This document shows positions 24,942-47,950 of a stretch of 64,000 bases of DNA, in pieces. A program made the position numbers and the translations under genes. The stretch is taken from assembly GCA_028715785.1 (NCBI GenBank), contig JAQURC010000006.1:21630-85629 (forward strand), written 5' to 3'. Origin of the DNA: Candidatus Omnitrophota bacterium. Lineage in GTDB: Bacteria > Omnitrophota > Gorgyraeia > Gygaellales > Profunditerraquicolaceae. How positions within the stretch are numbered: the stretch's first letter is position 1; each line of letters opens with the position of its first letter. Under the pieces are notes generated by a model, which was not told the origin of the DNA, made no database searches, and saw only the letters and a list, made by a program, of their open reading frames with translations.

Positions 24942-25014
24942 TGTCATTGCCAGGAGCGTAGCGACGAAGCAATCTAATACGAGATTGCTTCGCCCTTCGG
25001 GCTCGCAATGACAC
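24941..25014. repeat. Family B, copy 3
   Basis: GTGTCATTGCCAGG...CGAAGCAATC-taatacga-GATTGCTTCG...CTCGCAATGACAC. Begins at the mnmG stop and supplies the ATG at 25008. Confidence 0.85.
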
Positions 25015-25025
25015 GCTATTTTAGA

Positions 25026-26396: not shown

Positions 26397-26399
26397 AAA

Positions 26400-27543: not shown

Positions 27544-27597
27544 TTTACCCAGATTTTACCTCTCTTTGAAGTAGATTTAACCCCTTTATTTTATACT
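27544..27597 (+). promoter_or_regulatory. Pho-box array plus -10 element (R1)
   Basis: TTTACC-cagat-TTTACC-tctct-TTGAAG-tagat-TTAACC at 27544/27555/27566/27577 (11-bp phase). TATACT at 27592-27597 lies 9 nt after the last repeat. Confidence 0.6.
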
Positions 27598-27603
27598 TTG
27601 GCC

Positions 27604-28002
27604 ATGGTTAAGAAAATAATGATCGTAGAAGATGATAAAGATGTCAACGACCTTATTGCCTATAACCTGCGCAAAGAGGATTTTTATGTGGAGCAGGCTT
27701 TTGACGGCTTAAGTGCACAGGAGAGAATTAGAAAAGAAAGTTTTAATATTGTTATTCTCGATATTATGCTGCCCGGCATAGATGGGTTTGATATATGCAA
27801 ACTGATAAAAGATGACCCGCGGAATTTTCACACCTTTATTATAGTGGTGAGCGCTAAATCTCATGAACAGGATAAATTATATGCCCATCTTTTGGGGGCG
27901 GATTGTTATCTAAGCAAACCCTTCAATTTGGCAAGCTTATTAAGCACGGTAAGGGAAATAAGCGCCAACCTGGATAAAGAATTTTTAGTAAAAAGCAGAT
28001 AA
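27604..28002 (+). CDS. Single-domain response regulator (receiver only), PhoB-receiver paralogue
   Basis: IMIVEDDKDVNDLIAYNLRKEDF, LDIMLPGIDG, VSAKS, LSKPF. No output domain. The track start TTG 27598 is in frame; ATG 27604 is preferred. Confidence 0.8.
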   Translation: MVKKIMIVEDDKDVNDLIAYNLRKEDFYVEQAFDGLSAQERIRKESFNIVILDIMLPGIDGFDICKLIKDDPRNFHTFIIVVSAKSHEQDKLYAHLLGADCYLSKPFNLASLLSTVREISANLDKEFLVKSR

Positions 28003-28008
28003 ATTGAA

Positions 28009-28062
28009 TTTACACAGATTTTACCTGCGTTTAATTTAGAATCAATATGAAAAATGTAATAT
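28009..28062 (+). promoter_or_regulatory. Pho-box array plus -10 element (R2)
   Basis: TTTACA-cagat-TTTACC-tgcgt-TTAATT-tagaa-TCAATA at 28009/28020/28031/28042. TG-TAATAT at 28055-28062. Confidence 0.6.
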
Positions 28063-28107
28063 TGCAGTGATATCAGGGGAGGGTTAACAAAAAAAGGAGG
28101 GACAGGA

Positions 28108-29394
28108 ATGAAAAGGTTGTTAATCGCAGTATTGTTGGGAACTTTCTGCTTGATGAGCGCAGGTGTCCGGGTTTCATACGCAGGGGAAATCGATTTATTG
28201 TTACAAAAGTTAGTAGATAAAGGTGTTTTAACCGGCGCAGAAGCACAGCAGGTAAAACTTGAGACTCAGGAGCAGGTAAAGAAGGAAATTGCCCAGGGCA
28301 AGTATTCTTCTCTGCCGGCTTGGGTGCAGAATATCAAGTTAAAAGGTGATTTACGGCTGAGATATCAGAATCAACATGAAAAAAATAATGCTGATATACA
28401 AAAAGACGCCAACATCGGCCGTGTGCGTATGCGCTTGGGCTTAGAGGCCAAGGTAAACGATAAGATCCTCGCCGGAGTCGGTATAGCTACCGGAAGCGGA
28501 GATCCGCGCTCTACCAATATATCTTTCGGCGGTTACAATAGTAAAAAGACGGTTGTGCTGGATTATGCTTACGGTAAGTATGCGCCGCTTCCCTGGCTAA
28601 AACTTGTCGGCGGAAAAATGCTTCCTGGTGATGTATTTTGGGAGCCTACCGATTTAATATGGGATACGGATATAACTCCTGAAGGCGCGGTTATCGGGCT
28701 TAGCAAGGATTTGAATCCCAGAACCAATTTGTTTATGAACGGCAGTTTCTTAGTTGTCGAGACAGATTCTACATCAACTTCCGGGGCTTCGGCGTTCCTT
28801 ATTCAGCCGGGAGCAAGTTACAAATTTAATGATACCTACTCATTAAAAGGGGCGGTTTCTTTTTCCTCGTTCGATGTCAAAGACCAGGTTCCTTCAAGCC
28901 ACGATAAAGGCTCCAATACTAAATATAATAGCACTTCTGCTACTACGGGAAACTATGCCTTTAATTACGCGATGCTTAATCCTGCGTTAGAATTTAAGAT
29001 TATGCAGCCTTTTAAAGTTTTTGGGTTAAGCCCTGAATCTTTAAAGTTTTTTGGTGAATATGTGAATAACCTGGATGTTTCCAAGAAAAATACCGGTTTC
29101 TCGGCAGGGTTCCAGCTTGGCAATGAAAAAATCGAAAAGTGGGGTGATTGGCAGTTACGATACCTCTATGCTATGTTAGGCAAGGATGCCGTGCTTGATA
29201 TATTGCCTGACTCTGACCGTTATAGCGGTAAAACAGGCATAAGAAGCCATGAGGTTATTTTAAATTTCGGCTTAGCTAAAAATACCTCCCTTGGTTTTGA
29301 TATCTACCGTTCATGGGGAATAAACGGGATAAATAGCGGCGGAAGGGCGCAGCCTGAAACCTTGGCTCAGGTTGATCTTAATATGAAGTTCTGA
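28108..29394 (+). CDS. Outer-membrane beta-barrel porin, putatively phosphate-selective (OprO/P-like context)
   Basis: Signal peptide. N-terminal helical segment, then alternating beta-strand pattern and a C-terminal aromatic (LNMKF). Immediately upstream of pstS and downstream of a Pho box. Confidence 0.5.
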   Translation: MKRLLIAVLLGTFCLMSAGVRVSYAGEIDLLLQKLVDKGVLTGAEAQQVKLETQEQVKKEIAQGKYSSLPAWVQNIKLKGDLRLRYQNQHEKNNADIQKDANIGRVRMRLGLEAKVNDKILAGVGIATGSGDPRSTNISFGGYNSKKTVVLDYAYGKYAPLPWLKLVGGKMLPGDVFWEPTDLIWDTDITPEGAVIGLSKDLNPRTNLFMNGSFLVVETDSTSTSGASAFLIQPGASYKFNDTYSLKGAVSFSSFDVKDQVPSSHDKGSNTKYNSTSATTGNYAFNYAMLNPALEFKIMQPFKVFGLSPESLKFFGEYVNNLDVSKKNTGFSAGFQLGNEKIEKWGDWQLRYLYAMLGKDAVLDILPDSDRYSGKTGIRSHEVILNFGLAKNTSLGFDIYRSWGINGINSGGRAQPETLAQVDLNMKF

Positions 29395-29427
29395 CAAGCG
29401 TAATCAGCGAAAAGAGGAGGAATTAAA

Positions 29428-30246
29428 ATGAAATTAACAAGGTTAGCGGTAATGGGAACGTTGATTTTGGGCCTTGCGTTACCCTGCTACGCAGAGAAGA
29501 TTGTGGTTGAAGGCTCTACTACTGTGCTTCCTATCGCCCAAAAAACAGCTGAAGTTTATATGGACAAAAATCCCGGTGCCAATATTTCTGTGCGCGGCGG
29601 AGGTTCAGGAGTGGGTATTGCATCGTTGTTAGATAAAAATTGCGATATCGCTGATTCTTCCCGTCCGATTAAGGACACAGAGCTTGATAAAGCAGTAACT
29701 AACGGCGTTGATGCTACAGCTAATATAGTTGCCATGGATGGTTTAGCAGTAATTGTCAATCCGGAAAATAGCATTAGTAAATTAAGTAAAAAACAGGTAA
29801 AAGATATTTTTACCGGCACAATTTCTAACTGGTCTCAGTTAGGAGGCAAAGATGAGAAGATTGTAGTTGTATCCCGCGATACTTCAAGCGGGACATTTGA
29901 AGCTTTCCTCACGTTAGTATTGGAAGGCGGTAAAACCCGCTCTGATGCTTTAATGCAGGCATCTAATCAGGCAGTGGCAACTACTGTTGCTGGCACCCCG
30001 GGAGCTATAGGTTATGTGGGGTTAGGTTTTCTTTCATCTTCGGTAAAGGCGATTGAAATAAACGGAGTTATGCCTTCAAGGGATACGGTTGTCTCCGGTA
30101 AATATCCAGTTACCCGCCCGCTTTTTATGTACACCAATGGTAAACCTAAAGGGTTAGTTAAGGAATACATTGATTTTATTTTAAGCGATGAAGGACAGAA
30201 GTTAGTTGAAGAAGAGGGTTTTGTAGGGTTAAAGGAGAAAAAATAA
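29428..30246 (+). CDS. pstS: Phosphate ABC transporter substrate-binding protein PstS (copy 1)
   Basis: GSTTVLPIAQK...RGGGSGVGIASLLDKNCDIADSSRPIK...VSRDTSSGT. Confidence 0.9.
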   Translation: MKLTRLAVMGTLILGLALPCYAEKIVVEGSTTVLPIAQKTAEVYMDKNPGANISVRGGGSGVGIASLLDKNCDIADSSRPIKDTELDKAVTNGVDATANIVAMDGLAVIVNPENSISKLSKKQVKDIFTGTISNWSQLGGKDEKIVVVSRDTSSGTFEAFLTLVLEGGKTRSDALMQASNQAVATTVAGTPGAIGYVGLGFLSSSVKAIEINGVMPSRDTVVSGKYPVTRPLFMYTNGKPKGLVKEYIDFILSDEGQKLVEEEGFVGLKEKK

Positions 30247-30269
30247 AGCGTTTACTCGGTAACCCTAAG

Positions 30270-30300
30270 ATGGCACGGTGGATTTATTCTGCCGTGCCAT
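30270..30300 (+). other. Intercistronic stem-loop between pstS and pstC
   Basis: ATGGCACGG (13-nt loop) CCGTGCCAT, a 9-bp perfect stem with no U-run. This fits a 3' stabiliser or partial terminator that gives excess pstS mRNA. Confidence 0.5.
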
Positions 30301-30310
30301 TACTCCTATT

Positions 30311-31201
30311 ATGAAGATACTGCGTTTTAAAGAAAGACTATACAAATGGATTTTTACTATCCTTGCCTTTGCTTCGCTTTTTTTCCTGATGGGCATTGTG
30401 TTAGTGCTGGTTAAAGAAAGCCTGCCCATATTCCAGAAAGTAAACTTCTTTAAATTTATCTTTGGCCGCAGCTGGTATCCTACTTATAATCCCGCGGAAT
30501 TCGGAATCTTACCTTTAATTTTAGCTTCTATTTGGGTAACTTTGGGCGCGGTTGTAGTTTGTGTTCCTTTAGGGGTTGGCAGCGCGCTTTATCTAAATGA
30601 ATTAGCCGGGAGGCGCCAAAAAGCCGTACTCAAGCCAATCGTTGAATTGTTAGCCAGCATCCCTTCGGTAGTTTTCGGATTTTTTGGCGTGGTTATACTT
30701 ACGCCTTTATTACAGAAGGTATTTCATTTACCTACAGGGTTAACTGCCTTAAATGCCAGTATTATTTTGGGGGTTATGGCTACTCCTACGGTATGCAGTA
30801 TCGCAGAAGACGCATTAAATTATGTCCCGAATGCGTTTCGCGAGGCTTCATTTGCGGTAGGGGCCACACGCTGGCAAACTTTGACTCAAGTAATAATCCC
30901 GGCAGCGGGTTCAGGAATAGCTACGGCCATAATTTTAGGGATGAGCCGGGCGATCGGCGAAACGATGACTGTGTTAATGGTTGCCGGAGGTTCAGCAGTC
31001 ATACCTCATACATTCTTAGAGCCGGTGCGGCCGATGACCGCGGCGATTGCCGCGGAGATGGGGGAGGCTCCTATGGGCGGCAGCCATTATCACGCGCTTT
31101 TTGCCATCGCGCTCATATTATTTGTGATTACATTTATATTTAATGTTATCGCCGAGATAATCAGCCGGAGTTTTAGGGTAAAGCTGGGGTTAAGCGGATG
31201 A
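30311..31201 (+). CDS. pstC: Phosphate ABC transporter permease PstC (copy 1)
   Basis: PstC-like multi-TM protein with EDALNYVPNAFREASFAVGATRWQT. The track GTG 30278 lies in the hairpin, so ATG 30311 is preferred. Confidence 0.9.
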   Translation: MKILRFKERLYKWIFTILAFASLFFLMGIVLVLVKESLPIFQKVNFFKFIFGRSWYPTYNPAEFGILPLILASIWVTLGAVVVCVPLGVGSALYLNELAGRRQKAVLKPIVELLASIPSVVFGFFGVVILTPLLQKVFHLPTGLTALNASIILGVMATPTVCSIAEDALNYVPNAFREASFAVGATRWQTLTQVIIPAAGSGIATAIILGMSRAIGETMTVLMVAGGSAVIPHTFLEPVRPMTAAIAAEMGEAPMGGSHYHALFAIALILFVITFIFNVIAEIISRSFRVKLGLSG

Positions 31202-32046
31202 AGAAAGAGTTTTCGCAAAATTTGGGATTTTTTGGTTTATTCCTCTGCATGCTTACTACCATTTTGGCCCTGGGCTCAATTATTTATTTTATCGCGGCGC
31301 GTGGATTTAGCGTGTTGAGTTGGAGTTTTCTTACCCAGGTGCCGTATTCGGCGATGACTAAAGGCGGGATTGCGCCGGTTATCGTGGGCACATTTTATAT
31401 TACTTTGGGGGCGATTATGTTTGCTCTTCCGCTGGGGATTGCTTGCGCGGTATATCTTTGCGAGTATTCACCTAAGAGCATCGTGGTAAATATTATTAGA
31501 ATCAGCATCAATAATCTGGCCGGCGTGCCATCGGTTGTCTTTGGCCTATTTGGCTTAGCGGTGTTCGTTAAATTCTTCGGTTTTGGAGTTTCCATTCTCT
31601 CCGGAAGCCTGACTTTAGGGATTTTGGCGCTGCCAATGATAATCTCCTCAGCGCAAGAGGCGCTTTTGGCCGTTCCTCAATCAATCAGGGAAGCTTCATT
31701 ATCTCTGGGGGCGACGAAATGGGGAACTATCAAAAATATCGTCTTACCTACAGCTTTGCCCGGGATCCTTACCGGTGTGATTTTAAGTATTGGCAGGGTG
31801 GCCGGAGAAACTGCACCGATTCTATTTACCGCCGCCGCCTTTTATACGCGCGGCTATCCTAAATCCGTATTTTCCGAAGTCATGGCCCTGCCGTACCATA
31901 TTTACGCGCTGATGACTGAAGGAGCGCATCCGGATAAGCAAAGAGCGATTGCCTATGGTTGCAGCTTGGTGCTTTTATTTTTGGTTTTATTTATTTCAGG
32001 ATTTGCTATATTCTTGCGTCAAAGGCAGAGGAGTTTGTATGGATAA
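31198..32046 (+). CDS. pstA: Phosphate ABC transporter permease PstA (copy 1)
   Basis: [38 protein letters not shown] overlap with pstC. Confidence 0.9.
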
Positions 32047-32800
32047 CAAGATAAAAATGCAGGCAAAAAACGTGGATTTTTTTTACGGGAAAAACCAGGC
32101 GCTAAAAAATGTCAACCTCAATGTTTATGCCAATAAAGTTACGGCGATGATCGGGCCTTCAGGCTGCGGCAAATCAACATTCATCCGTCTGTTTAACCGG
32201 ATGAATGAATTAGTCGCGCATACAACCCTTAAAGGCAAGATTTTGCTGGATGATTTGGATATTAACAGCCCTCTGGTTGATGCCGTGGATATTCGAAAAA
32301 GGGTGGGGATGGTTTTTCAGAAACCCAATCCTTTTCCTAAAACTATATTTGAAAATATAAGCTACGGTTTAAAAGTGAACGGAATAAAAGATAAAGCGTT
32401 TATTGAGCAGAAGGTTGAAGATTCCTTAAAGAAGGCGGTTATCTGGGCTGAAGTAAAGGACAGGCTTAATGACAGTGCTTTGAAATTATCCGGCGGGCAG
32501 CAACAACGTTTATGTATTGCCCGGTGTTTGGCCGTAGAGACAGAGGTAATACTATTTGATGAGCCATGTGCCAGCCTGGATCCGATATCAACCGCTAAGA
32601 TAGAGGAATTGATTTTGGAGCTTAAAAAAGATTATTCCATTGTGATTGTCACGCATAATATGCAGCAGGCAGCGCGGGTCTCTGATTATACAGGGTTTTT
32701 CCTTTTGGGGGAGTTGATTGAGTTTGGAAAAACGCAGGATATATTTACCGCTCCCAAAGATAAAAAAACCGAGGCTTATATAACCGGTAGGTTTGGTTAA
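32039..32800 (+). CDS. pstB: Phosphate import ATPase PstB (copy 1, canonical motifs)
   Basis: [43 protein letters not shown]-type Walker [12 protein letters not shown]. Start at Met 32039 (8-nt overlap with pstA); the upstream part of the track ORF is out-of-frame overlap. Confidence 0.95.
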
Positions 32801-32829
32801 ACAAGGCAACTTATTAGCGAGGTCTGATT

Positions 32830-33507
32830 ATGGAAAGACATTTTGACGTAGAGTTGGCCGATTTAAAAAGTAGTATACTTCAGATGGGTGATTTAGTGGA
32901 GGAAGCGATTATTGATTCGGTGGAGGCGCTTAAACAGTTACGTAAAGATAAAGCTGCCAGGGTGATTGCCGAAGATAAGATTGTTGATGAGTGCGAACTT
33001 AAAATTGATGAAGAGTGTCTGGATCTTTTGGCTTTAAGGCAGCCGATGGCAGTGGACCTGCGTTTTATTACCATGGCGATGAAGATCTCTACTGATTTGG
33101 AAAGAATGGCGGATCTGGCTGTGGATATCTCCCAGCGGGTGTTGGAATTAGCAGATAAGCCGCTGCTTAAGCCGCTGGTAGATATACCAAAATTAACCCT
33201 GCTTGCGCAAAAGATGACTCGTGATGCCATAAGTTCATTTGTTAATAAAGACGCGGAATTAGCCAGGATAGTAATATCGAGCGATCGAGAAGCCGATAAC
33301 CTGCGTGATCTAGTTCAACAGGAGCTGCTCAATGATTATATCTCCAAAAATAAAACAACTATTCCACGCGCTATTCCTTTACTTTTGATTGCCCGCCATC
33401 TTGAGCGTATCTGCGATCACGCCACTAATATCGCCGAAGATGTAATCTATATGGTTGAGGCAAAGGTAGTAAAACACCACCTGGAAAAATTAGATGAAAA
33501 CAGTTGA
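32830..33507 (+). CDS. phoU: Phosphate signalling regulator PhoU (copy 1)
   Basis: Two PhoU repeats, with LERMADLAVDI and LERICDHATNIAEDVIYM. Confidence 0.95.
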   Translation: MERHFDVELADLKSSILQMGDLVEEAIIDSVEALKQLRKDKAARVIAEDKIVDECELKIDEECLDLLALRQPMAVDLRFITMAMKISTDLERMADLAVDISQRVLELADKPLLKPLVDIPKLTLLAQKMTRDAISSFVNKDAELARIVISSDREADNLRDLVQQELLNDYISKNKTTIPRAIPLLLIARHLERICDHATNIAEDVIYMVEAKVVKHHLEKLDENS

Positions 33508-33569
33508 TTTAAGATGGTTGCTGCAATATTATAATGTCGCGTTGTATTTTAAAAGGAGATACTTTTAGC

Positions 33570-34001
33570 ATGGATAAGAAAAAAGTTTTATTTGTTTGCG
33601 TGCATAACTCGGCTCGTTCGCAAATGGCCGAAGCGTTTTTAAAACAGATGGCTGGTGATAGATTTGAGGTGGAGAGCGCGGGCCTGGAGCCTGGCAAGTT
33701 AAATCCCACAGTTGTCGAGGTGATGAAAGAGGTAGGCATCGATATTTCACAGAACAAGACTAAGAGTGTGTTTGATTTCTACAAACAGGGTAAACGATAT
33801 GATTATGTTGTGACTGTGTGCGCTGAATCGCAAGCGGAAAAGTGTCCTATTTTTCCCGGGACAGCAGTCACACAAAGAATGCATTGGGGTTTTGATGACC
33901 CCTCGAGTTTTCAGGGGGGCCAGGATGAGAGAATGAAGAAAATCCGCCAGGTTAGAGATAAAATTAAACGCCGGATTATGGAATGGATTAATGAAAGATA
34001 G
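33570..34001 (+). CDS. arsC: Arsenate reductase, LMW-PTP/thioredoxin-coupled type
   Basis: CVHNSARS (CX5R P-loop) and the downstream Cys pair VCAESQAEKCP. AAAGGAG RBS before Met 33570. Confidence 0.8.
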   Translation: MDKKKVLFVCVHNSARSQMAEAFLKQMAGDRFEVESAGLEPGKLNPTVVEVMKEVGIDISQNKTKSVFDFYKQGKRYDYVVTVCAESQAEKCPIFPGTAVTQRMHWGFDDPSSFQGGQDERMKKIRQVRDKIKRRIMEWINER

Positions 34002-34875
34002 CCGGTGCAAAGTATTTTGCTTGCCTGTTATTATCCGCCCCCGTTTACTATCAGTTATTTTAATGGTATTAGCTTTATCCTTGAATACAGTTGTTCAGGG
34101 TTCCTTTGCCCAAGGTGCCGATTCTACTTATCGCAAAGGTATAGAATACGCTTCCGAAGGAAGATTCCCGGAGGCTGCGGATTGGTTTCAAGATAACCTA
34201 AAAAACAATAAATCAGATTCTACTTCACTTAGTTCCCTTATCGTTATTAAGGATTTAAATGACGGTAAAATTACCGATGTGTATGCCAAGTCTTTTTTTA
34301 CAGGATTGAATTTTCTACAAAACGGTAATATAGATGATGGGCTTAAGGAGCTCCAGAAGGCTATAGAATTTAATCCAGGCTATCCTAAGCCGTATAATGT
34401 CATTGGTGTGGTTTATGCTTCAGTTGGGGATAAATCCAAAGCCATTGATTATTTCCAAAAAGCCATAGAAATAAATCCTCAATATAGCCAGGCATGTTTT
34501 AACCTAGCCGCGTTGTATCAATCATCAGCCCAGCCGGAAGATGCCCTTAAGTATTATGAGAAAGTAATATCTTTGGATCCAAATTCTTTCGAAGCAATAA
34601 TTAATATGGCCGCAATTTATGCTTTACTTGGGAAATACTCCGAAGCGATTAGGTATTATCAAAATGCCATCGGGTTGGATGGGAATAACCCCGAACTGTA
34701 TTATAACCTCGCCCTATCTTATTTTATGTCTGATCAATTTAGAAAGTTTAAAGAAAATCTTCTTAAATCCCAAGAATTATATCAAGAAAAAGGTGATCGC
34801 CAGGGGCTTGAGAAAGTAGCAGTATATATGAATAAGATGAAAGAAATTGAAAGCAAGGCAAGGCATACCAAGTAA
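33991..34875 (+). CDS. Secreted TPR-repeat protein
   Basis: Signal peptide (LMVLALSLNTVVQGSFA) and several TPR units (AIEFNPGYPKPYNVIGVVY, AIEINPQYSQACFNLAALY ...). Confidence 0.6.
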   Translation: MKDSRCKVFCLPVIIRPRLLSVILMVLALSLNTVVQGSFAQGADSTYRKGIEYASEGRFPEAADWFQDNLKNNKSDSTSLSSLIVIKDLNDGKITDVYAKSFFTGLNFLQNGNIDDGLKELQKAIEFNPGYPKPYNVIGVVYASVGDKSKAIDYFQKAIEINPQYSQACFNLAALYQSSAQPEDALKYYEKVISLDPNSFEAIINMAAIYALLGKYSEAIRYYQNAIGLDGNNPELYYNLALSYFMSDQFRKFKENLLKSQELYQEKGDRQGLEKVAVYMNKMKEIESKARHTK

Positions 34876-34933
34876 GCAACTCCCCTCATTAGAACGGACA
34901 CTCCCTGATTGTTAATTGTAATTATGCGGTAAA

Positions 34934-34987
34934 TTTACAAAGAATTTACATTGCCTTAATAATTAGTTAACAAATTAATTGTATATT
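34934..34987 (+). promoter_or_regulatory. Pho-box array plus -10 element (R3)
   Basis: TTTACA-aagaa-TTTACA-ttgcc-TTAATA-attag-TTAACA at 34934/34945/34956/34967. TATATT at 34982-34987, 9 nt after the last repeat. Confidence 0.65.
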
Positions 34988-35021
34988 TTCTATGTAAGCA
35001 ATGGATTAAAAAGCCACGGAA

Positions 35022-35051
35022 GGGAAAGGTCTCGTAAAAGAGGCTTTTCCC
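35022..35051 (+). other. 5'-leader stem-loop upstream of 35077
   Basis: GGGAAAGGTCTC-gtaaaa-GAGGCTTTTCCC: a 12-bp stem (two G-U pairs) between the putative -10 and the start codon. Confidence 0.4.
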
Positions 35052-35076
35052 TTAAAATATCACCAGGGAATCAAAA

Positions 35077-35730
35077 ATGTTAAAAATAAGAGGCACTATT
35101 TTATCCATAATATTTATCCTTTTATTGTCGCGCTATGCCGTGGCCGAAGTAGTTACTCTCAAATCCGGCAAGGTTATTGACGGTGAAATTGTCGAAAGAA
35201 ATAAAGACTATGTTAAAGTTAAATATGATGGACAAGAGATTTATTATGAAAATAAATATATTAAAAATATAGAGGCACAAAATACGCCTGAGCCAGCCGT
35301 GAATGCGGAAAAAGAAAAAGCAGCGCAAGATCCAATGCCATCTTTTAAGAGCGCAATAGAGTTGGCTGCGGCAGGGAACTTCAGCCAGGCTAGGCAGGAA
35401 TTTCAAAAGCAGTTCAATGATATAAAAGGAGGGCTTAATATTCTTGATGATGTGGAGAAAGGCTTAATCAGTAAAGAGTATGCCATCTATTTATTTCAAG
35501 GGTCATTGCATATGATTAACGGGGAATATAATTTAGCCATAACATCTTTGGAAAAGGCCTGGGAAATTAATCCCAGGGATCCGGATCTAAATTATAACCT
35601 CGGTTCCGCTTATTTTTCCTTGGGGGAATATAAAGAATCAATCGTGTATTTGTCCGCTGTTTTAAAATTACAACCGCTTGATACCGAGGCCCAGGAGCTT
35701 CTAACCAGGGCTTATCATGGACAAAACTAA
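35077..35730 (+). CDS. Secreted protein with small N-terminal beta domain and TPR repeats
   Basis: Signal peptide ILSIIFILLLSRYAVA. TPR-like units (KAWEINPRDPDLNYNLGSAYFSLGEYKESI). Confidence 0.55.
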   Translation: MLKIRGTILSIIFILLLSRYAVAEVVTLKSGKVIDGEIVERNKDYVKVKYDGQEIYYENKYIKNIEAQNTPEPAVNAEKEKAAQDPMPSFKSAIELAAAGNFSQARQEFQKQFNDIKGGLNILDDVEKGLISKEYAIYLFQGSLHMINGEYNLAITSLEKAWEINPRDPDLNYNLGSAYFSLGEYKESIVYLSAVLKLQPLDTEAQELLTRAYHGQN

Positions 35731-35747
35731 ACAGCTAATTCCTCAAC

Positions 35748-38700
35748 ATGTTTAGAATGTTACGTAGAATCTTAGCCTGCCTGTTATGTTTTACGCTCCT
35801 CTTTGAACAGAGTGGTTTTGCCCAGTCTGTAGCGGAAGGCAATTTCTTAGGTTTTTTTGCCCCTCCTCACCTAAGCGGCGCCTTTAATCCCGCGCGTCTT
35901 CGCTATGTTGCATACGCCGAAAACATCAATAAATTTAAATTTTTATTTGACAAGGGTGATTTAAGAGATACTGACGATTTTACTTTAAAGGATTCAATCA
36001 GCGGACCTTTAAGTTATTTTTTGGTAGGGATAACTTTACCGAGCGAAAGTTTCTGGGTAAATCTGCGGCCGGATTCCCCGGCTAATGTTATCGATGATTT
36101 ACTGGCTGAAACTGATGTGGGCAAGATTTTCTTAGAAGCCGACTTGCAGTTAAAGAAGGAGTTTGCTCGTTACACTATGTCTGCCCAGCAGGGAAAAGAA
36201 TATCGGCTGCAAATCAGGAAAAAAGCCGAAGAGCTTTTTGGCTGCCTGGCGTTAGCTCCTTCAACTTTTACCCGCGTGTGGATTGACCCGGGTGAGATAA
36301 TCATCAGAGAAACTCAAAACAGCGCTTATATATATAAAGCAAATTTGAATGTGCTTACGGAGGAAGATTATTTTGGAAATTCCTTGGCCTCTGAAGATAA
36401 ACGGGTACAGGCTTTTAACGAATACGCGTCAGAACTTATAAAAAATTTAATTTTACCCAAGCTTATCAAGGAGGTGAATACCGGGAAAGAATTTGCCGCT
36501 TTAAGACAGGTTTATTATTCTTTTATTTTAGCTCAGTGGTTTAAAAATAGATTCTTGCAGCGTAACGGTCCAGCGCCCCGGTTTATCGATAGTAAAATTT
36601 TATCTGGTCTTAATTCTAAACATCCTTGGTCCAAGGAGGATTATTTTGCGCAATACCAGGAATCAGTACAAAGGGGGGACTACCGTTTTGATGAAAGAGA
36701 ACCTTTAGTTTTTGGAGAAATGGTAACTAGTTATTCTTGCGGCGGGGTAACTCTGGCATTAAAAATTCCGCCTTTTGCTTCTGCGGGGATGATCACTAGT
36801 GATGGGAGTATGACTTTAATAGGCGGAAGAGAAATAGAAGGTATTTTATCCCCTGACCGGGTTCTTGACCTAGGGTTAATCAGTGCAACTGCAAAATTTG
36901 ATCTAAAGGATCCGCTGGGTAATGTTATTGTTGAATCCGCAGCAAGTTCAGTTCGTAATGCTGCGTCAGCCGCTCCTGTTTCTGCTGCCAGCAGCGCGCA
37001 GGCGATGAATGACGGTGGAAGCCAGGTATTGAAAAAAGCAAAAGAAAAACTAAGTGTGTTAGAATTAAATAATCCGGCTTATTTAATTGCCGCGGAGCTA
37101 TTGCTTGGCGCTTTATTTATTTTTGGATTTTTTGTTGACGCCGGGAGTATGTTTTATAACTATGGGGTATTTGGACACTCCGTAATAGAAAGGTTTGTCG
37201 GTTATCCCTTGCCGAGTTTGAATGAGTATTTCCAGATTATCTCGCTTTCTTTTATTGCCTTTAACGCCTTGTTTGGATTATCAAAATCACCCGCGGTTAG
37301 GGCAAAAACCGGGCTTGCCCCCATTTTTTCAATACTTTCGGGATTTACGCTTTTTGGGATAGTGCCGCTGGCTATCAGCCTTACGGGTTTAGATAAATAT
37401 TTCAACTTGCAACTGGCGGTTTCTCCTTACGCGATGGAGGCCTTCGCGCTTTTGGGCGCGGCAGTTATAGGTCTATTGCCGGGGATGAATACTAAAAAGG
37501 AGAGCCCGGTTGATTTCCCTGAGAGTAGTCCGGATATAGAAAATAATACGGGTTGGGTGGAGCCTTCATGGGACGCTGTAGTAGAGGCGGCTTTGAATGA
37601 AGTAAACAAAAGGGCCGGTATTTCCGGCCTTACCGATGGAGCCTGTCTTGAGTTCCTGGAACAAACGCGCAAGCTCAGAAACCTCCTGCCTTTTGAATCG
37701 CATATCGTTACCGACAAAAGAGTCGCCTATTATCAGATTTACGACGAAGCTTTACAGTCTCTGTGCAAGAAACTCCAGGAAATTATGGATAGGCTGCGTG
37801 TAAGTACAGATGAGTTGGAACGAAAACGCCTGAATATCTACGCTTCTGAAATATTGGTTACTGCCGAATATTTTAATGAATGCCTGCGCGCTCTTAATGA
37901 GGTAGAGAATATCCCTCTTTCATCCGGTGACCGGCTTGACCGCAGCACCCCTTTTCGTAAAACAATCTCTTTTATTGTCGGGCATGCCTTTGGGTTTAAT
38001 AAGACATTTAACTATTCCAAGAAGGAGCTTATGAAGCAGCTAAAGGAGAAAATCATTCCGTTAGGCAATAGCTTGGATAACCTTTATTCGACAAAAGCCG
38101 ATATCGATAAGCAGGTTATTAAAAAGTGGGGGGAATGGATCCAAAACTGTTATGAAGGCAAAAGAAAAAGGCTGGGCGCCAGAAAAGGCTGGGTTTTTTG
38201 GAAAGAGATGTTCGGCCCGCTTGTCAGCCTGGTCTTGGTGGCTTCTGCACTTCCGATTGGCGGGAACATTGGTTTTCTAGAGTTCTTGTCCGCCCCTGAC
38301 TTTAGCGCGGGCGCTTTATGGAACGCAAAACCATTGGTAGGGCTTTCGCTTATTTTTTTGGGTTGGTATGTGTTACTGTTTCCCGGCAGAGGTAAAGCCG
38401 ACCAGACTTATAAAGAACACAATAAGACAATTGAGAAGTTAAAGCGGCAATTTAAAGACACTTTTTTCCTTATTGAGGGGGATTCAAGAAACAAGGCATT
38501 ACAATTTGCTTATGAGCAGTCTCTTGAAGCGGCTTGGAAAGAACTTTCTAGCGCCAGCGCAAGCGCGCAGGCAGTCATTGTTGTCACGGAACAGCCCAAA
38601 ATAATTCAGGATTTTCTTGAAAATTTGCGCGGTACGATATTACGAAAAGATGTCGAATTATTGGCTATTTCCGCCGAAAACAAAGGCAGTGCCGCGGCGT

Positions 38701-40094
38701 TTATCGAAGGTATGTTAGAAGCGCGGAAGTTTAAGAGAAGTATACTGTTGTTGGGAAGAGAGCAGGATATTGCGCGGTCATTGCAGCTTTTGCCGCTTCC
38801 GGCGTTTGAGCCGCTGGGGCGGCCATTGACCCCTTTGGAATTATCGCTGATTAATGGTTATCAGCTAACCCAGGCTTTAAAACAAAAAGGCCGTTGGGGT
38901 ACAGCGGTAGAAGTTACGCATAAATGCTTGATTCGTGATCTGAATTCATCATTGGAAGAAGTGCCTGACATGGAATTAACAACGGCATTGGTCGATATAG
39001 AGCAAATGGCCAGGCAGGATCTGGCATTAATTGTTGAAAATAACGGTAATGGCGGAAACGGTAAGCCAAAACCGTATGGGTGGATCCGCAAGATATTTAA
39101 ACATTTGAGTCTAGAAGACGTGAGAAATAAGACCGGGCCAAGGCATTTGCCCGCGTTTTCTGTTGACTGGCGCAATAAAGAAAAGCGGCAAATGCGCGTA
39201 TTCAGCGGAGAGATATTGGTAAGTATTCAGGATAAAGAACGCAATGAGTCTTTTATGTCGTTTCTTTCGCAAATGAAGGATTATATGGCTGAGCATTCCA
39301 AAGATAGTTTTCAACCCAATCTTACTACCCATTTTCTCGTTCCTCTGGTTATGCTTACTAATAACGAAGGAGCAGGGATTCACCGTTTTCGGGAGGGCCT
39401 GAATTTAAAAAATAAAGAGGATATTTTTTTAAAGGGGCTCTTCAATTTGTTTTGGCCTGAAGATGATACAGGGTATCACAGTAAATTAGCAGCTCTTCAA
39501 ATAGAAGCTCTTATACCCCATCAAAGTTCATTCTATACGCGTTTAGACGGCACTACGGATGCGGATGCGGTATTGAAACAACAATTAGGCGGCCTTTATA
39601 CTGAACCGCCTAACAAAGAAATTTTAACTTTACTGTACAGGGCTGCCCAAAACGAGGATACAGCCTCAATGCAACATGAATTAGACGGCGGGCATTCATC
39701 ATCCAATGTAATATCCTCCAGCCCGCAGAGAGTTGTAATTCCATCATTGGGAGCCGGCGTCGGCGGCATAGGTTTTTCTTCAATGAAAGTTGTCCTGAAC
39801 TACGATGATCTGTTGAAAATAGATGGGGAGTGGGGTCAAATTGAAAAGATGTTGGAGTCCGGAAACCTTCCCTCGATACCTTCGGTCACAAATTATGTGG
39901 AAACGGCGGTAAAAAATACTGATTCCGGTATGCAGTTATATAAAGCGATGGCCTGCGTTGCCGGTATCCTCAAACTGGAAGAAGAATTGGTAATCCCGGC
40001 GCAGATGGAAATTAAAAGGCTGTTGCTGGTGCTGGAAGAACATCTAAACCGGCAGGGCGGCCAAATGAATTCTAAGAATCTTGCTTTAAGGTAA
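35748..40094 (+). CDS. Giant (1448 aa) multi-pass membrane protein, unknown function
   Basis: Uninterrupted ORF. Signal peptide ending GFAQS, ~430-aa N-terminal exported domain, two TM clusters (~aa 445-590 and ~aa 820-880) around a helical soluble region, and a ~560-aa C-terminal domain. No motif I can assign securely. Confidence 0.5.
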   Translation: MFRMLRRILACLLCFTLLFEQSGFAQSVAEGNFLGFFAPPHLSGAFNPARLRYVAYAENINKFKFLFDKGDLRDTDDFTLKDSISGPLSYFLVGITLPSESFWVNLRPDSPANVIDDLLAETDVGKIFLEADLQLKKEFARYTMSAQQGKEYRLQIRKKAEELFGCLALAPSTFTRVWIDPGEIIIRETQNSAYIYKANLNVLTEEDYFGNSLASEDKRVQAFNEYASELIKNLILPKLIKEVNTGKEFAALRQVYYSFILAQWFKNRFLQRNGPAPRFIDSKILSGLNSKHPWSKEDYFAQYQESVQRGDYRFDEREPLVFGEMVTSYSCGGVTLALKIPPFASAGMITSDGSMTLIGGREIEGILSPDRVLDLGLISATAKFDLKDPLGNVIVESAASSVRNAASAAPVSAASSAQAMNDGGSQVLKKAKEKLSVLELNNPAYLIAAELLLGALFIFGFFVDAGSMFYNYGVFGHSVIERFVGYPLPSLNEYFQIISLSFIAFNALFGLSKSPAVRAKTGLAPIFSILSGFTLFGIVPLAISLTGLDKYFNLQLAVSPYAMEAFALLGAAVIGLLPGMNTKKESPVDFPESSPDIENNTGWVEPSWDAVVEAALNEVNKRAGISGLTDGACLEFLEQTRKLRNLLPFESHIVTDKRVAYYQIYDEALQSLCKKLQEIMDRLRVSTDELERKRLNIYASEILVTAEYFNECLRALNEVENIPLSSGDRLDRSTPFRKTISFIVGHAFGFNKTFNYSKKELMKQLKEKIIPLGNSLDNLYSTKADIDKQVIKKWGEWIQNCYEGKRKRLGARKGWVFWKEMFGPLVSLVLVASALPIGGNIGFLEFLSAPDFSAGALWNAKPLVGLSLIFLGWYVLLFPGRGKADQTYKEHNKTIEKLKRQFKDTFFLIEGDSRNKALQFAYEQSLEAAWKELSSASASAQAVIVVTEQPKIIQDFLENLRGTILRKDVELLAISAENKGSAAAFIEGMLEARKFKRSILLLGREQDIARSLQLLPLPAFEPLGRPLTPLELSLINGYQLTQALKQKGRWGTAVEVTHKCLIRDLNSSLEEVPDMELTTALVDIEQMARQDLALIVENNGNGGNGKPKPYGWIRKIFKHLSLEDVRNKTGPRHLPAFSVDWRNKEKRQMRVFSGEILVSIQDKERNESFMSFLSQMKDYMAEHSKDSFQPNLTTHFLVPLVMLTNNEGAGIHRFREGLNLKNKEDIFLKGLFNLFWPEDDTGYHSKLAALQIEALIPHQSSFYTRLDGTTDADAVLKQQLGGLYTEPPNKEILTLLYRAAQNEDTASMQHELDGGHSSSNVISSSPQRVVIPSLGAGVGGIGFSSMKVVLNYDDLLKIDGEWGQIEKMLESGNLPSIPSVTNYVETAVKNTDSGMQLYKAMACVAGILKLEEELVIPAQMEIKRLLLVLEEHLNRQGGQMNSKNLALR

Positions 40095-40109
40095 GGGGGC
40101 ATTTACGGC

Positions 40110-40385
40110 ATGAAAAATTACATTTTCAAAAATGATTTAAGGCGCAAGAATACAAAATTTCTTACAACAGCCAGCATGGTTTTAAAAACGTACGCTTGGT
40201 TTATTCTTATTTTAAGCGTATTGTCGGCAATATTGATAATGTCCGGGGTTTTAAGCAGCGTGCCGCCGTGGGCAGGCCTGGTTGTTTTATCCGCGTATAC
40301 ATTCTTCTTCTTTTTCTTCTACACCATAGCCGAAATTTCAGATTTATTGGTAGCGATCAAAGAGGCGTTACAAAGTAATTGTTGA
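40110..40385 (+). CDS. Small two-TM membrane protein
   Basis: AAGGGGG RBS. Two hydrophobic helices. Follows the giant gene after a 15-nt gap. Confidence 0.45.
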   Translation: MKNYIFKNDLRRKNTKFLTTASMVLKTYAWFILILSVLSAILIMSGVLSSVPPWAGLVVLSAYTFFFFFFYTIAEISDLLVAIKEALQSNC

Positions 40386-40483
40386 CTAAATCCCCGATTA
40401 ATTATTTACTTACTCATTAACATATCATATAATAATTCAGATTGTTTTACCCGCAATAATCTTTCCAAAGAAAGGTTAAAGAA

Positions 40484-41140
40484 ATGAATAAAACAGGCTT
40501 GGTGGCTATTGGTTTGATACTATTGTTATTAGCTAATGCCTATGCTTATGACGACGGTGATTTTCAGGTATGGAACACGGATGTCGAGGAAATCCAGCTT
40601 AAGAAAGATTTAAAGCTGGCCTTTGAGCAGGAGTTTCGCTGGGGGGATAACGCCAGTGAATTTTACTACCAGCATTATGATGTCGGATTAACCTATAACC
40701 TAAATAAATATTGGAGTGCCGGCGGTGGATACCGGCATGTGCTTAATAAAAGCAAAGATAAATTTTTGGTAGAAAACGAGCCTTATGTTACGGCCACTTT
40801 TGCCAGCCAATTTGCCGGATTTAAATATGATGACCGCAGCCGGCTGGAATATAACCATTTTGATTATAAAGATGACACCTGGCGCTACCGCAATAAGCTT
40901 ACGGTAAAGGCCCCCTGGAAATTTACTAAATTAGAGATCCAGCCGTTTGCTGCCGATGAGATATTCATTCTTTTTGATGATGGCCAGAGGTTAAGTGAAA
41001 ACAGGACGACTGCGGGTTTGGCGATGAATATCGCCAAAAACCTAAAAGGTGAAGTTTATTATATGTTCAGAACCGTAAAAAGCGGACTGAAGTGGACGGA
41101 TACGAATGTATTGGGAACAAAACTAAAGTTAGTGTTTTAA
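40484..41140 (+). CDS. Outer-membrane beta-barrel protein (DUF2490-like)
   Basis: Signal peptide. DDGDFQVWN...EQEFRWGDN...YYQHYDVGLTY alternating pattern. Terminal LKLVF. Confidence 0.5.
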   Translation: MNKTGLVAIGLILLLLANAYAYDDGDFQVWNTDVEEIQLKKDLKLAFEQEFRWGDNASEFYYQHYDVGLTYNLNKYWSAGGGYRHVLNKSKDKFLVENEPYVTATFASQFAGFKYDDRSRLEYNHFDYKDDTWRYRNKLTVKAPWKFTKLEIQPFAADEIFILFDDGQRLSENRTTAGLAMNIAKNLKGEVYYMFRTVKSGLKWTDTNVLGTKLKLVF

Positions 41141-41142
41141 AT

Positions 41143-41186
41143 TTTACTTAGATTTAACATGGATTTAGAGTAAATACAAGTATAAT
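41143..41186 (+). promoter_or_regulatory. Pho-box array plus -10 element (R4)
   Basis: TTTACT-tagat-TTAACA-tggat-TTAGAG at 41143/41154/41165. TATAAT at 41181-41186, 10 nt after the third repeat. Confidence 0.55.
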
Positions 41187-42075: not shown

Positions 42076-42094
42076 TGCGAAAGTTATTAACAGT

Positions 42095-42122
42095 TGTAGG
42101 GGAGGTTTAAACCTCCCCTACA
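42095..42122. repeat. Family A hairpin, copy 3 (between pstS2 and pstC2)
   Basis: TGTAGGGGAGGTTTAAACCTCCCCTACA is a perfect 28-nt palindrome, preceded by TAACAGTT. Confidence 0.85.
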
Positions 42123-42141
42123 TTAAGGGTATCAGGCGGCT

Positions 42142-45348: not shown

Positions 45349-45394
45349 ACACCCCGCGCTTATAAGGTATTGCGCGGGTATGGCCTTGTGGCCA
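45349..45394 (+). repeat. Family E element + satellite hairpin, copy 1
   Basis: ACACCCCGCGCTTATAAGGTATTGCGCGGGTA, then TGGCC-ttgt-GGCCA. Starts right after the pstB2b stop. The satellite abuts the phoU2 RBS. Confidence 0.8.
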
Positions 45395-45404
45395 AGGAGG
45401 ATAA

Positions 45405-46746: not shown

Positions 46747-46753
46747 AGGGCAA

Positions 46754-47945: not shown

Positions 47946-47950
47946 AGATA

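What the first reader, a model, noticed from the sequence alone, without database searches (positions are those of the whole stretch)
27544..41186. Four 11-bp-periodic Pho-box arrays with the same distance to a -10 element define a local Pho regulon
**Arrays.**
- R1 (27544): TTTACC/TTTACC/TTGAAG/TTAACC.
- R2 (28009): TTTACA/TTTACC/TTAATT/TCAATA.
- R3 (34934): TTTACA/TTTACA/TTAATA/TTAACA.
- R4 (41143): TTTACT/TTAACA/TTAGAG.

**Shared geometry.**
- All have 5-nt spacers between hexamers.
- All end 9-10 nt before a TAnnnT -10 hexamer.
- None has a -35 element.

The hexamer consensus TT(T/A)AC(A/C) and this geometry match Bacillus-type PhoP boxes and the logic of PhoB-dependent promoters.

**Targets.** The arrays precede the receiver-only regulator, porin-pstSCAB-phoU-arsC-TPR, the TPR-giant operon, and pstS2C2A2B2aB2b-phoU2. 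A weaker, partial site (TTTACC at 40446, within the same cagatNNTTTACC context) precedes the DUF2490-like OMP gene.
Basis: partly seen in the sequence, partly recalled or inferred. Interest (0 to 1): 0.55.

Follow-up and report, generated by a model that had tools for sequence, protein, structure and literature searches.

The report
Phosphate-starvation promoter boxes in Omnitrophota
Four promoters in this uncultivated Omnitrophota bacterium carry tandem 11-bp-spaced TTTAC-type repeats, the classic binding sites ("Pho boxes") for a phosphate-starvation regulator; they are real, conserved across the phylum and specific to phosphate-uptake genes, but they work like the well-known Bacillus and E. 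coli versions.

Summary
Four intergenic arrays (27544, 28009, 34934, 41143) consist of 3-4 TT(T/A)AC(A/C)-like hexamers spaced 11 bp apart. The last hexamer ends 9-10 nt before a TAnnnT hexamer, and there is no -35. The core TTTAC-N6-TTWAC occurs 4 times in 3,038 nt of intergenic DNA against about 0.016 expected (P about 2e-9).

A matrix built only from the window was scanned over 76 PhoU loci from other species (about 1 Mb). It finds the same arrays almost only in intergenic DNA, co-oriented with the downstream gene, before pstS, porin, DUF2490, receiver-only and giant-protein homologues. Hits occur in 37/79 target upstream regions against 2/380 others (p = 6e-30). The -10-like hexamer starts exactly 48 nt after the first hexamer in 29/51 sites. 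In L003 the array inverts together with its gene.

A PhoB-like regulator (below the equivalog cut-off) and a PnpS/PhoR-type kinase (above it) lie immediately upstream. The architecture equals the published Bacillus PhoP box and the E. coli pstS geometry.

Verdict: genuine Pho boxes, a new member of a known kind. The "partial site" at 40446 is not supported. Binding and phosphate induction remain untested.

The parts
27544..27582 (+). R1 Pho-box array: four units TTTACC/TTTACC/TTGAAG/TTAACC, 11-bp period
   Evidence: dimer score 21.2. The R1 type (including TTGAAG as unit 3 and TATACT as -10) is conserved just after phoR in many Omnitrophota loci.
27592..27597 (+). R1 -10-like hexamer TATACT, 9 nt after unit 4. 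The ATG of the receiver-only gene starts 6 nt later (27604), which suggests a leaderless mRNA.
   Evidence: TATACT-N6-ATG is conserved in L070, L005, L050, L032, L008, L063, L061 and L009.
27604..28002 (+). Receiver-only response regulator (132 aa), target of R1
   Evidence: Pfam Response_reg only. Its best NCBIfam match is the PhoB receiver half. It is 39% identical to the receiver domain of the PhoB-like regulator.
28009..28047 (+). R2 Pho-box array: TTTACA/TTTACC/TTAATT/TCAATA
   Evidence: dimer 20.6. Conserved before the porin gene in L005, L050, L063 and L072.
28057..28062 (+). R2 -10-like hexamer TAATAT, 9 nt after unit 4
28108..34875 (+). Operon predicted to be driven by R2 (and by read-through from R1): Porin_5, pstS1, pstC1, pstA1, pstB1, phoU1, ArsC/LMW phosphatase, TPR protein
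   Evidence: Pfam and NCBIfam. Gene gaps are 33 nt or less. The same order is seen in relatives.
34934..34972 (+). R3 Pho-box array: TTTACA/TTTACA/TTAATA/TTAACA
   Evidence: dimer 19.6. In alignment A2 with L001, L002 and L003 the invariant columns fall in the four hexamers and the -10, plus A19 just before unit 1 and A30/A31 just before unit 2. In L003 the gene and the array are inverted together.
34982..34987 (+). R3 -10-like hexamer TATATT, 9 nt after unit 4
35077..40385 (+). Operon predicted to be driven by R3: TPR protein (217 aa), 1448-aa membrane protein with no Pfam or NCBIfam family, 91-aa protein
   Evidence: Giant homologues in L001-L003 are each preceded by an array.
41143..41170 (+). 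R4 Pho-box array: three units TTTACT/TTAACA/TTAGAG
   Evidence: dimer 21.7. In alignment A3 of pstS2-type promoters from 7 other species, the invariant columns are the first two units and the -10.
41181..41186 (+). R4 -10-like hexamer TATAAT, 10 nt after unit 3
41221..46073 (+). Operon predicted to be driven by R4: pstS2, pstC2, pstA2, pstB2a, pstB2b, phoU2
   Evidence: Pfam. Same order in relatives.
25704..26396 (+). OmpR/PhoB-family response regulator, the proposed protein that binds the arrays
   Evidence: NCBIfam best hit is PhoB TIGR02154, 264.5 bits against a 296.2 cut-off. Closest solved relative is RegX3, 2oqr.
26400..27509 (+). PAS-HisKA-HATPase histidine kinase, the proposed phosphate sensor
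   Evidence: NCBIfam PnpS NF046044, 429.4 bits, above the 400 cut-off. PhoR TIGR02966 scores 330.2 against a 334.2 cut-off.

Best explanation
The four arrays are Pho boxes: operator sites for the phosphorylated OmpR/PhoB-family regulator encoded at 25704-26396. Its partner kinase is at 26400-27509.

Inferred mechanism: under phosphate limitation the kinase phosphorylates the regulator. Regulator protomers then bind head-to-tail to successive 11-bp units, with consensus (A)(T)TT(T/A)AC(A/C)(T). Units 1-2 form the high-affinity dimer site. Units 3-4 are weaker and are probably filled cooperatively. The promoter-proximal protomer ends 9-10 nt upstream of the -10 hexamer, so it occupies the place of the missing -35 element and recruits the RNA polymerase sigma subunit (class II activation, as for E. 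coli PhoB).

The arrays would switch on four transcription units:
1. a receiver-only protein that resembles the PhoB receiver; it is probably translated from a leaderless mRNA and may act as a feedback modulator or phosphate sink;
2. porin-pstSCAB-phoU-arsC-TPR;
3. the TPR, 1448-aa membrane protein and 91-aa protein operon;
4. pstS2C2A2B2aB2b-phoU2.

Shown here: the sequence architecture, its non-randomness, its conservation and target specificity across Omnitrophota species, and the gene identities. Inferred: which protein binds, that it activates rather than represses, the transcription start sites, and phosphate responsiveness.
For: - Architecture and statistics.
- Independent-genome test: the window-only matrix gives 51/56 intergenic hits at score 18 or more. 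Target upstream regions 37/79 against others 2/380, Fisher p = 5.6e-30, and only 1/459 antisense hits.
- Fixed phase: the -10-like hexamer is at +48 in 29/51 sites, at +37 or +38 in 5, and the distance is 4 mod 11 in 34/51.
- Footprint: mean information is 1.62, 1.57, 0.93 and 1.10 bits for units 1-4 and 1.42 for the -10, against 0.23 for the 9-nt gap and about 0.3 for the flanks. Alignments A2 and A3 agree.
- The array moves with its gene in L003.
- Conserved synteny mnmG-Fer4-phoB-phoR-[array]-(receiver or DUF2490)-[array]-(porin)-pst-phoU.
- Regulator and kinase identities.
[quoted passage not shown] The E. coli PHO box is two 11-nt units with 7 conserved and 4 less conserved bases (PMC4415409). 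PhoB overlaps the -35 region and contacts sigma through W184, G185, V190, E191 and D192 (PMC3348028).
Against: - No binding, expression or transcription-start data exist for this uncultivated organism.
- The regulator scores below NCBIfam's PhoB equivalog cut-off (264.5 against 296.2). Its DNA-binding domain alone is not closer to PhoB than to other OmpR-family members.
- Its activation loop is 2 residues longer than in E. coli PhoB, and V190/E191/D192 are not obviously conserved.
- R4 has an odd number of units (three), which does not fit a simple model of two dimers.
- Many related sites are orthologous, so the counts across species are not fully independent events.
- Only 35/76 related loci show a strong array. 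Many of the rest are short contigs that lack the upstream region, and some carry a TTCACA variant.
Confidence: 0.85

Rival explanations
1. The arrays are operators for a different OmpR-family (or other direct-repeat-binding) regulator encoded elsewhere in the genome, not for the adjacent PhoB-like protein. The regulon would respond to another signal, for example envelope or general nutrient stress.
For: The adjacent regulator is below the PhoB equivalog cut-off. Its DNA-binding domain is generically OmpR-like. Only a 64-kb window of the genome is available, so other regulators cannot be excluded.
Against: The targets are two complete pst-phoU operons, the canonical Pho regulon core. The regulator-kinase pair lies directly upstream of the first array in conserved synteny across many species. 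The kinase passes the PnpS phosphate-sensor cut-off. The regulator's best family match is PhoB and its nearest solved relative is RegX3; that RegX3 responds to phosphate is from PMC4415409 and my own knowledge.
Confidence: 0.07
2. The same regulator binds the arrays but represses these promoters, for example by occluding RNA polymerase under phosphate-replete conditions.
For: The arrays overlap the -60 to -22 region, where a bound protein could also block polymerase. PhoP/PhoB-type regulators are described as activating or repressing transcription (PMC4415409).
Against: R1, R3 and R4 have no usable -35 element (2/6 or less), so they are expected to be weak without an activator. The distance from the last unit to the -10 is fixed at 9-10 nt and in phase; from my own knowledge this matches the activating geometry of E. 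coli pstS and B. subtilis Pho promoters. All sites are co-oriented with the gene (1/459 antisense), which matters for activator-sigma contact but not for simple occlusion.
Confidence: 0.05
3. The phased T-rich repeats are protein-independent promoter elements (intrinsically curved DNA or UP-like elements, or multiple -35-like TTTACA boxes), or simply chance in AT-rich intergenic DNA.
For: TTTACA matches the -35 consensus TTGACA at 5 of 6 positions. T-tracts phased at about 11 bp can bend DNA. The four intergenic regions are AT-rich (24-33% GC).
Against: Chance is excluded: 0.016 expected against 4 observed in intergenic DNA, and the other AT-rich intergenic regions that were scored reach only 9.5 or less. 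No hexamer lies 16-18 nt from a -10. The conserved 'AC' and the base after it are not needed for curvature but are conserved across species, whereas spacer bases vary. The element is confined to phosphate-related genes.
Confidence: 0.03

Closest known systems
Bacillus subtilis PhoP boxes (Firmicutes-type PHO box)
   Same: Both have four TT(A/T/C)ACA-like hexamers on the coding strand with 11-bp periodicity, spanning about -60 to -20, at promoters without a usable -35 and upstream of pst genes (PMC11870197 citing Eder 1999). The Lacticaseibacillus pstS site (tttaca-N5-tttaca...) is almost identical in sequence to R3. A TTCACA variant also occurs in Omnitrophota (L007, L064), so the full TT(A/T/C)AC range is covered.
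   Different: The phylum is different (Omnitrophota, with an outer-membrane porin gene in the operon). Position 6 is often C (TTTACC), and the two bases before the hexamer (A, T) are also conserved. R4-type sites have three units. The regulator is closer by family score to PhoB than to any Firmicute model. There is no array upstream of the regulator-kinase operon, whereas B. subtilis phoPR is autoregulated (my own knowledge).
Escherichia coli PhoB Pho box (CTGTCAT-N4-CTGTCAT)
   Same: Both have 11-bp direct-repeat units with about 7 conserved and 4 variable bases (PMC4415409). Binding overlaps and replaces the -35, with contact to sigma (PMC3348028). The last unit ends about 10 nt before the -10, and E. 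coli pstS carries four units (my own knowledge).
   Different: The core sequence is TTTAC(A/C), not CTGTCAT. The residue equivalent to PhoB Arg201 is Thr, conserved in orthologues; this fits a different base specificity, but that is an inference. The activation loop is two residues longer. phoBR here shows no sign of autoregulation (best dimer score 0.1 upstream).
Cyanobacterial SphR Pho boxes
   Same: Both are tandem direct repeats with an 11-bp period (8-bp repeats with a 3-bp linker) upstream of pst and phosphatase genes, and both were predicted by phylogenetic footprinting (PMC1906773).
   Different: I could not retrieve the cyanobacterial consensus from the paper text. From memory it is PyTTAAPyPy(T/A), which resembles the TTAACC units here but not the dominant TTTAC core. 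The fixed +48 geometry was not compared.
Streptomyces / Mycobacterium PhoP and RegX3 direct-repeat units
   Same: Both use 11-nt direct repeat units in variable numbers, with simple and complex operators (PMC2275107, PMC4415409). RegX3 is the closest solved homologue of the regulator.
   Different: The cores are GC-rich (GTTCACC) in high-GC genomes, so the sequences are unrelated at the level of the motif.

Membership tests
Pho box (PhoB/PhoP-type operator) | Two or more direct repeats with about 11-bp periodicity | tested here: met
   Three to four units at exactly 11-bp spacing in all four arrays. The same is seen in relatives.
Pho box (PhoB/PhoP-type operator) | Located in promoters of phosphate-acquisition genes (the pst operon above all) and not generally in intergenic DNA | tested here: met
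   37/79 target upstream regions against 2/380 others, p = 5.6e-30. In the window, the 14 other intergenic regions that were scored all reach 9.5 or less.
Pho box (PhoB/PhoP-type operator) | Overlaps or replaces the -35 element at a fixed distance from the -10 | tested here: met
   The last unit ends 9-10 nt before TAnnnT. No -35-like hexamer at 16-18 nt. The +48 phase holds in 29/51 independent sites. The -10 elements and start sites are predicted, not mapped.
Pho box (PhoB/PhoP-type operator) | Bound by the phosphorylated Pho response regulator | not testable with these tools
   This needs EMSA or footprinting with the protein encoded at 25704-26396.
Pho box (PhoB/PhoP-type operator) | Downstream genes induced by phosphate starvation | not testable with these tools
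   No expression data are available, and no paper combines Pho box and Omnitrophica.
Pho box (PhoB/PhoP-type operator) | A cognate PhoB/PhoR-type two-component system is encoded | tested here: inconclusive
   The kinase passes the PnpS equivalog cut-off (429.4 against 400). The regulator's best hit is PhoB, but at 264.5 against a 296.2 cut-off.
Bacillus-type PhoP box | Four TT(A/T/C)ACA-like hexamers with 11-bp periodicity | tested here: met
   R1-R3 have four units and R4 has three. The consensus from 38 non-redundant related sites is TTTAC(c/a)-N5-TTTAC(a/c)-N5-TT.A..-N5-tTAAc. The definition is from PMC11870197.
E. coli-type Pho box | Core heptamer CTGTCAT | tested here: not met
   The cores are TTTAC(A/C) or TTAAC(A/C), and there is no CTGTCAT in the arrays. 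The logic is the same but the sequence family is different.
NCBIfam PhoB equivalog (TIGR02154), for the regulator | Score above the curated cut-off of 296.2 bits | tested here: not met
   264.5 bits. It is the best-scoring family, so the protein is PhoB-like but not a certified equivalog.

The most novel reading that the evidence does not exclude
In Omnitrophota the phosphate-starvation regulon has recruited lineage-specific components beyond phosphate transport:
- a 1448-aa multi-pass membrane protein whose N-terminal module of about 340 aa (no solved-structure fold match) and C-terminal module of about 75 aa are shared with other large Omnitrophota proteins; the N-terminal module recurs in hundreds of them, with unrelated enzyme domains in between;
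- a DUF2490 outer-membrane protein and a dedicated porin;
- a PhoB-receiver look-alike (and, in relatives, a conserved micro-protein of about 35 aa) expressed from a leaderless transcript.

If so, phosphate limitation in these ultra-small, possibly host-dependent bacteria would control a cell-surface or host-interaction apparatus, plus a decoy-receiver feedback loop not described for model Pho systems.
Probability: 0.2. Interest if true: 0.55.

Novelty: new member of a known kind. Interest (0 to 1): 0.3.

Why it matters
This is a clean, high-confidence cis-regulatory prediction for an uncultivated phylum in which almost no regulation is known. It shows that the Bacillus-type TT(A/T/C)AC Pho-box grammar and the PhoB-style replacement of the -35 extend to Omnitrophota. 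It provides a matrix that can be used to annotate Pho regulons in Omnitrophota MAGs. It also nominates new phosphate-starvation genes of unknown function for study: the Porin_5 porin, DUF2490, the TPR proteins, the 1448-aa modular membrane protein, the receiver-only protein and a micro-ORF. Conceptually it confirms known biology and does not change it.

Tried and rejected
- Exact-protein look-up of the regulator found nothing on record. The source was identified instead from PhoU relatives and from the 100% identical NCBI entry P0001 (PHP73_05735, Ca. Omnitrophica).
- An Rfam E-value scan of 23000-47000 gave no RNA family, so there is no known riboswitch or leader in the 5' regions.
- The consensus sigma-70 scan gives as many hits as shuffled sequence (36 against 35.2) and no canonical promoter at the four -10s. 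It did suggest TTTACT-17-TATAAT at 40405-40433 for DUF2490, and a non-conserved TTTACA-18-AATAAT inside R3 that I regard as coincidental.
- The terminator scan was no better than shuffles, so operon ends are inferred from gene gaps only.
- A search of solved structures with the DNA-binding domain alone does not discriminate PhoB from other OmpR-family members.
- The micro-ORF found in relatives has no counterpart in the window.
- Paper PMC3173795 (Blanco 2011) is not held. The search for 'TTHACA' returned only an irrelevant paper.
- The hypothesis that 40446 is a partial Pho box was rejected.
- The hypothesis that phoB-phoR is autoregulated through an array was rejected for the window (best dimer 0.1) and for the relatives examined (Fer4 0/3, mnmG 0/8 upstream regions).


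Full report
**1. What is in the sequence**

Reading the window at the stated coordinates confirms all four arrays, hexamer by hexamer.

- R1: TTTACC (27544) cagat TTTACC tctct TTGAAG tagat TTAACC, a 9-nt gap, then TATACT (27592-97).
- R2: TTTACA (28009) cagat TTTACC tgcgt TTAATT tagaa TCAATA, a 9-nt gap, then TAATAT (28057-62).
- R3: TTTACA (34934) aagaa TTTACA ttgcc TTAATA attag TTAACA, a 9-nt gap, then TATATT (34982-87).
- R4: TTTACT (41143) tagat TTAACA tggat TTAGAG, a 10-nt gap, then TATAAT (41181-86).

All genes in the 64-kb window lie on the + strand. All four arrays are intergenic and point towards the next gene.

**2. Is it more than chance?**

- The core TTTAC-N6-TTWAC occurs 5 times on both strands against 0.47 expected from dinucleotide shuffles. 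Four are the arrays and the fifth is inside pstS1 on the opposite strand.
The window has 28 intergenic regions totalling 3,038 nt. The expectation there is 0.015-0.017 matches; 4 are observed, 0 of 20,000 shuffles reach that number, and Poisson P is about 2e-9.
- A 9-nt unit matrix scored as dimers gives 19.6-21.7 for the four regions. The 14 other intergenic regions I scored all give 9.5 or less, including the regions upstream of mnmG, of Fer4-phoB-phoR and of the Lrp-like gene.
- No -35-like hexamer lies 16-18 nt upstream of the four -10 hexamers. The best match to TTGACA is 2/6 or less for R1, R3 and R4, and a weak 4/6 for R2. The generic promoter scan finds no canonical pair ending at those -10s.

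**3. Genes**

- mnmG, then a 4Fe-4S (QueG-like) protein.
- An OmpR/PhoB-type regulator (25704-26396) and a PAS-HisKA-HATPase kinase (26400-27509).
- [R1] a receiver-only protein.
- [R2] Porin_5, pstS, pstC, pstA, pstB, phoU, a thioredoxin-type ArsC / LMW phosphatase and a TPR protein.
- [R3] a TPR protein, a 1448-aa protein with no family, a 91-aa protein and DUF2490.
- [R4] pstS2, pstC2, pstA2, two pstB genes and phoU2.

The kinase exceeds the curated cut-off of the PnpS phosphate-sensor model (429.4 against 400). The regulator's best model is PhoB, but it is below the equivalog cut-off (264.5 against 296.2). Its nearest solved homologue is RegX3, the phosphate regulator of mycobacteria (SenX3-RegX3 is listed among the Pho systems in PMC4415409).

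**4. Where it comes from, and the independent test**

PhoU relatives place the window in Candidatus Omnitrophota. The 1448-aa protein is 100% identical to NCBI PHP73_05735 from a Ca. Omnitrophica MAG.

I built the matrix only from the window's 15 hexamers. I scanned it over 76 PhoU loci from other species-level genomes (1.04 Mb, of which about 7% is intergenic by a simple ORF caller).

- At a dimer score of 18 or more, 51 of 56 hits are intergenic.
- Classified by the downstream gene among 459 upstream regions of 40 nt or more, sense hits occur before pstS2-like (20/33), DUF2490 (8/16), porin (4/8), receiver/regulator (3/19, or 6/19 at a score of 16 or more) and giant-protein homologues (2/3, or 3/3 at 16 or more).
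- They occur before only 2 of 244 genes with no homologue among the window proteins I used for labelling. Both cases precede small ORFs, which I judge spurious, in the leader upstream of the porin gene. They occur before none of the internal pst genes, phoU, mnmG or Fer4.
- Only 1 of the 459 upstream regions has a comparable hit on the antisense strand.
- Targets against non-targets: 37/79 against 2/380, Fisher p = 5.6e-30.

That criterion is not met.

**5. Conserved geometry and footprint**

- For 51 intergenic sites in relatives, the best -10-like hexamer within 17-75 nt starts exactly 48 nt after the first hexamer base in 29 sites. That distance equals four units plus a 9-nt gap. It starts at +37 or +38 (three units) in 5 sites. 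The distance is 4 mod 11 in 34/51.
- In 38 non-redundant sites aligned on unit 1, mean information is 1.62 and 1.57 bits for units 1-2, 0.93 and 1.10 for units 3-4, and 1.42 for the -10. It is only 0.23 for the 9-nt gap and about 0.3 for the flanks.
- Units 3-4 and the inner -10 positions were not used to select the sites, so their conservation is independent evidence.
- The two bases before each hexamer (A, T) and the base after it are also conserved. The real unit is therefore about 8-9 conserved bases out of 11, like the '7 + 4' of E. coli.
- In alignments of R3-type and R4-type promoters, the invariant columns fall in the hexamers and the -10, plus the one or two bases immediately before units 1 and 2; the rest of the spacers drift.
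- In L003 the giant-protein homologue is on the opposite strand and its array is inverted with it.
- Gene order is conserved across the phylum: mnmG-Fer4-phoB-phoR-[array]-(receiver-only or DUF2490)-[array]-(porin-)pstSCAB-phoU.
- Some lineages use TTCACA instead of TTTACA with the same spacing and the same 9-nt gap (L007, L064).

**6. Mechanism**

The architecture is that of a PhoB/PhoP-dependent class II promoter.

- Published descriptions: the E. coli PHO box is two 11-nt direct-repeat units, 7 conserved plus 4 less conserved bases, bound head-to-tail (PMC4415409).
- PhoB binding overlaps the -35 region and contacts the sigma C-terminal domain through W184, G185, V190, E191 and D192 (PMC3348028).
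[quoted passage not shown] (PMC11870197).
- From my own knowledge, the last unit of the E. coli pstS promoter also ends 10 nt before the -10, and B. subtilis core sites span about -60 to -20. The arrays here occupy the same positions, about -60 to -22 if the -10 is at -12 to -7.

I therefore infer the following. The phosphorylated regulator binds units 1-2 strongly and units 3-4 cooperatively. The proximal protomer substitutes for the missing -35.

R4-type promoters have three units, so the strong dimer sits one helical turn closer. Phase is kept but stoichiometry differs.

The regulator is 44% identical to E. coli PhoB. The regulator keeps the W-G of the activation loop. Its recognition helix, RTVDVHIRTLRK, differs from PhoB's RTVDVHIRRLRK only at the Arg201-equivalent position (Thr, conserved in orthologues). 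That fits a changed base specificity, but this is an inference.

**7. Corrections to the finding**

- The 'partial site' at 40446 is a lone hexamer with unit score 7.0, a value reached at 133 plus-strand positions. TTTACC occurs 98 times in the window. The site lies downstream of a canonical-looking TTTACT-17-TATAAT (40405-40433), and its 'cagat' is out of register. DUF2490 is nevertheless a Pho-box target in many relatives, where it has full four-unit arrays. In this genome DUF2490 may be read through from R3 or use its own promoter.
- There is no array upstream of the regulator-kinase operon.
- Binding and induction remain untested.

**8. Comparison and novelty**

This is a Bacillus-type Pho-box sequence with E. 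coli-type promoter logic, in a phylum where no Pho box is reported in the searched library (add nothing relevant). It is a new member of a known kind.

The less ordinary parts are the predicted regulon members: a dedicated porin, DUF2490, TPR proteins, the 1448-aa modular membrane protein, a receiver-only PhoB look-alike at a leaderless-type promoter, and a micro-ORF in relatives. A specialist would find the main result expected. Its value is as annotation and as a source of leads.

Noticed in passing
window 27592-27606; L070 297-311: The receiver-only gene's ATG (27604) begins 6 nt after the R1 -10 hexamer TATACT, with no room for a Shine-Dalgarno sequence, so the mRNA is probably leaderless. 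TATACT-N6-ATG is conserved in at least eight relatives.
   Followed up: partly
L005 4424-4528; L063 3987-4091; L032 4947-5054; L009 4388-4483; L008 4898-5032: In several relatives the same leaderless ATG starts a conserved micro-ORF of 32-45 aa (for example MIKKIKKLVKEVIGIVRRIVDEEAEAMNRFYAEYE*), and the receiver-only gene follows about 120 nt later. The micro-ORF is under the R1-type Pho box and is absent from the window.
   Followed up: partly
[not shown]
   Followed up: partly
L007 about 4800-4920; L064 about 4090-4213: Variant arrays with TTCACA cores show the same 11-bp spacing and the same 9-nt gap to the -10 (TTCACA-N5-TTCACA-N5-TTAATT-N5-TTCACA-N9-TACAGT). They are missed by the window-derived matrix.
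   Followed up: no
window 26277-26312 (regulator residues about 192-203): The recognition helix RTVDVHIRTLRK is identical to that of E. coli PhoB except for Thr at the Arg201-equivalent position, and this is conserved in Omnitrophota orthologues. The preceding activation loop (WGFDHAMEIQT) is two residues longer than in PhoB.
   Followed up: partly
window 40405-40433: A canonical-looking sigma-70 promoter (TTTACT-17 nt-TATAAT, 10/12 matches) precedes DUF2490 in this genome, whereas many relatives have a full four-unit Pho box before DUF2490. This suggests promoter turnover for that gene.
   Followed up: partly
window 29423-29444: A sub-threshold dimer (score 17.2; AATTAAAATGAAATTAACAAGG) overlaps the porin-pstS1 junction and the pstS1 start codon. 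It could be a weak internal site or chance.
   Followed up: no
window 23115-27509 and relatives: The synteny mnmG, 4Fe-4S QueG-like protein, phoB, phoR is conserved across many Omnitrophota species, with no Pho box upstream. The regulator-kinase pair therefore seems to be co-transcribed with housekeeping tRNA-modification genes and not autoregulated.
   Followed up: partly
window 46261-48673: An Lrp/AsnC regulator, a class I/II aminotransferase and a GAF-ANTAR protein follow phoU2. The Lrp-aminotransferase pair is syntenic with phoU2 in many relatives, and no array precedes it.
   Followed up: no
window 29786-29801 (minus strand): This is the fifth match to TTTAC-N6-TTWAC. It lies inside pstS1 on the antisense strand, has no further units and no -10 in phase, and is most likely chance.
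   Followed up: partly
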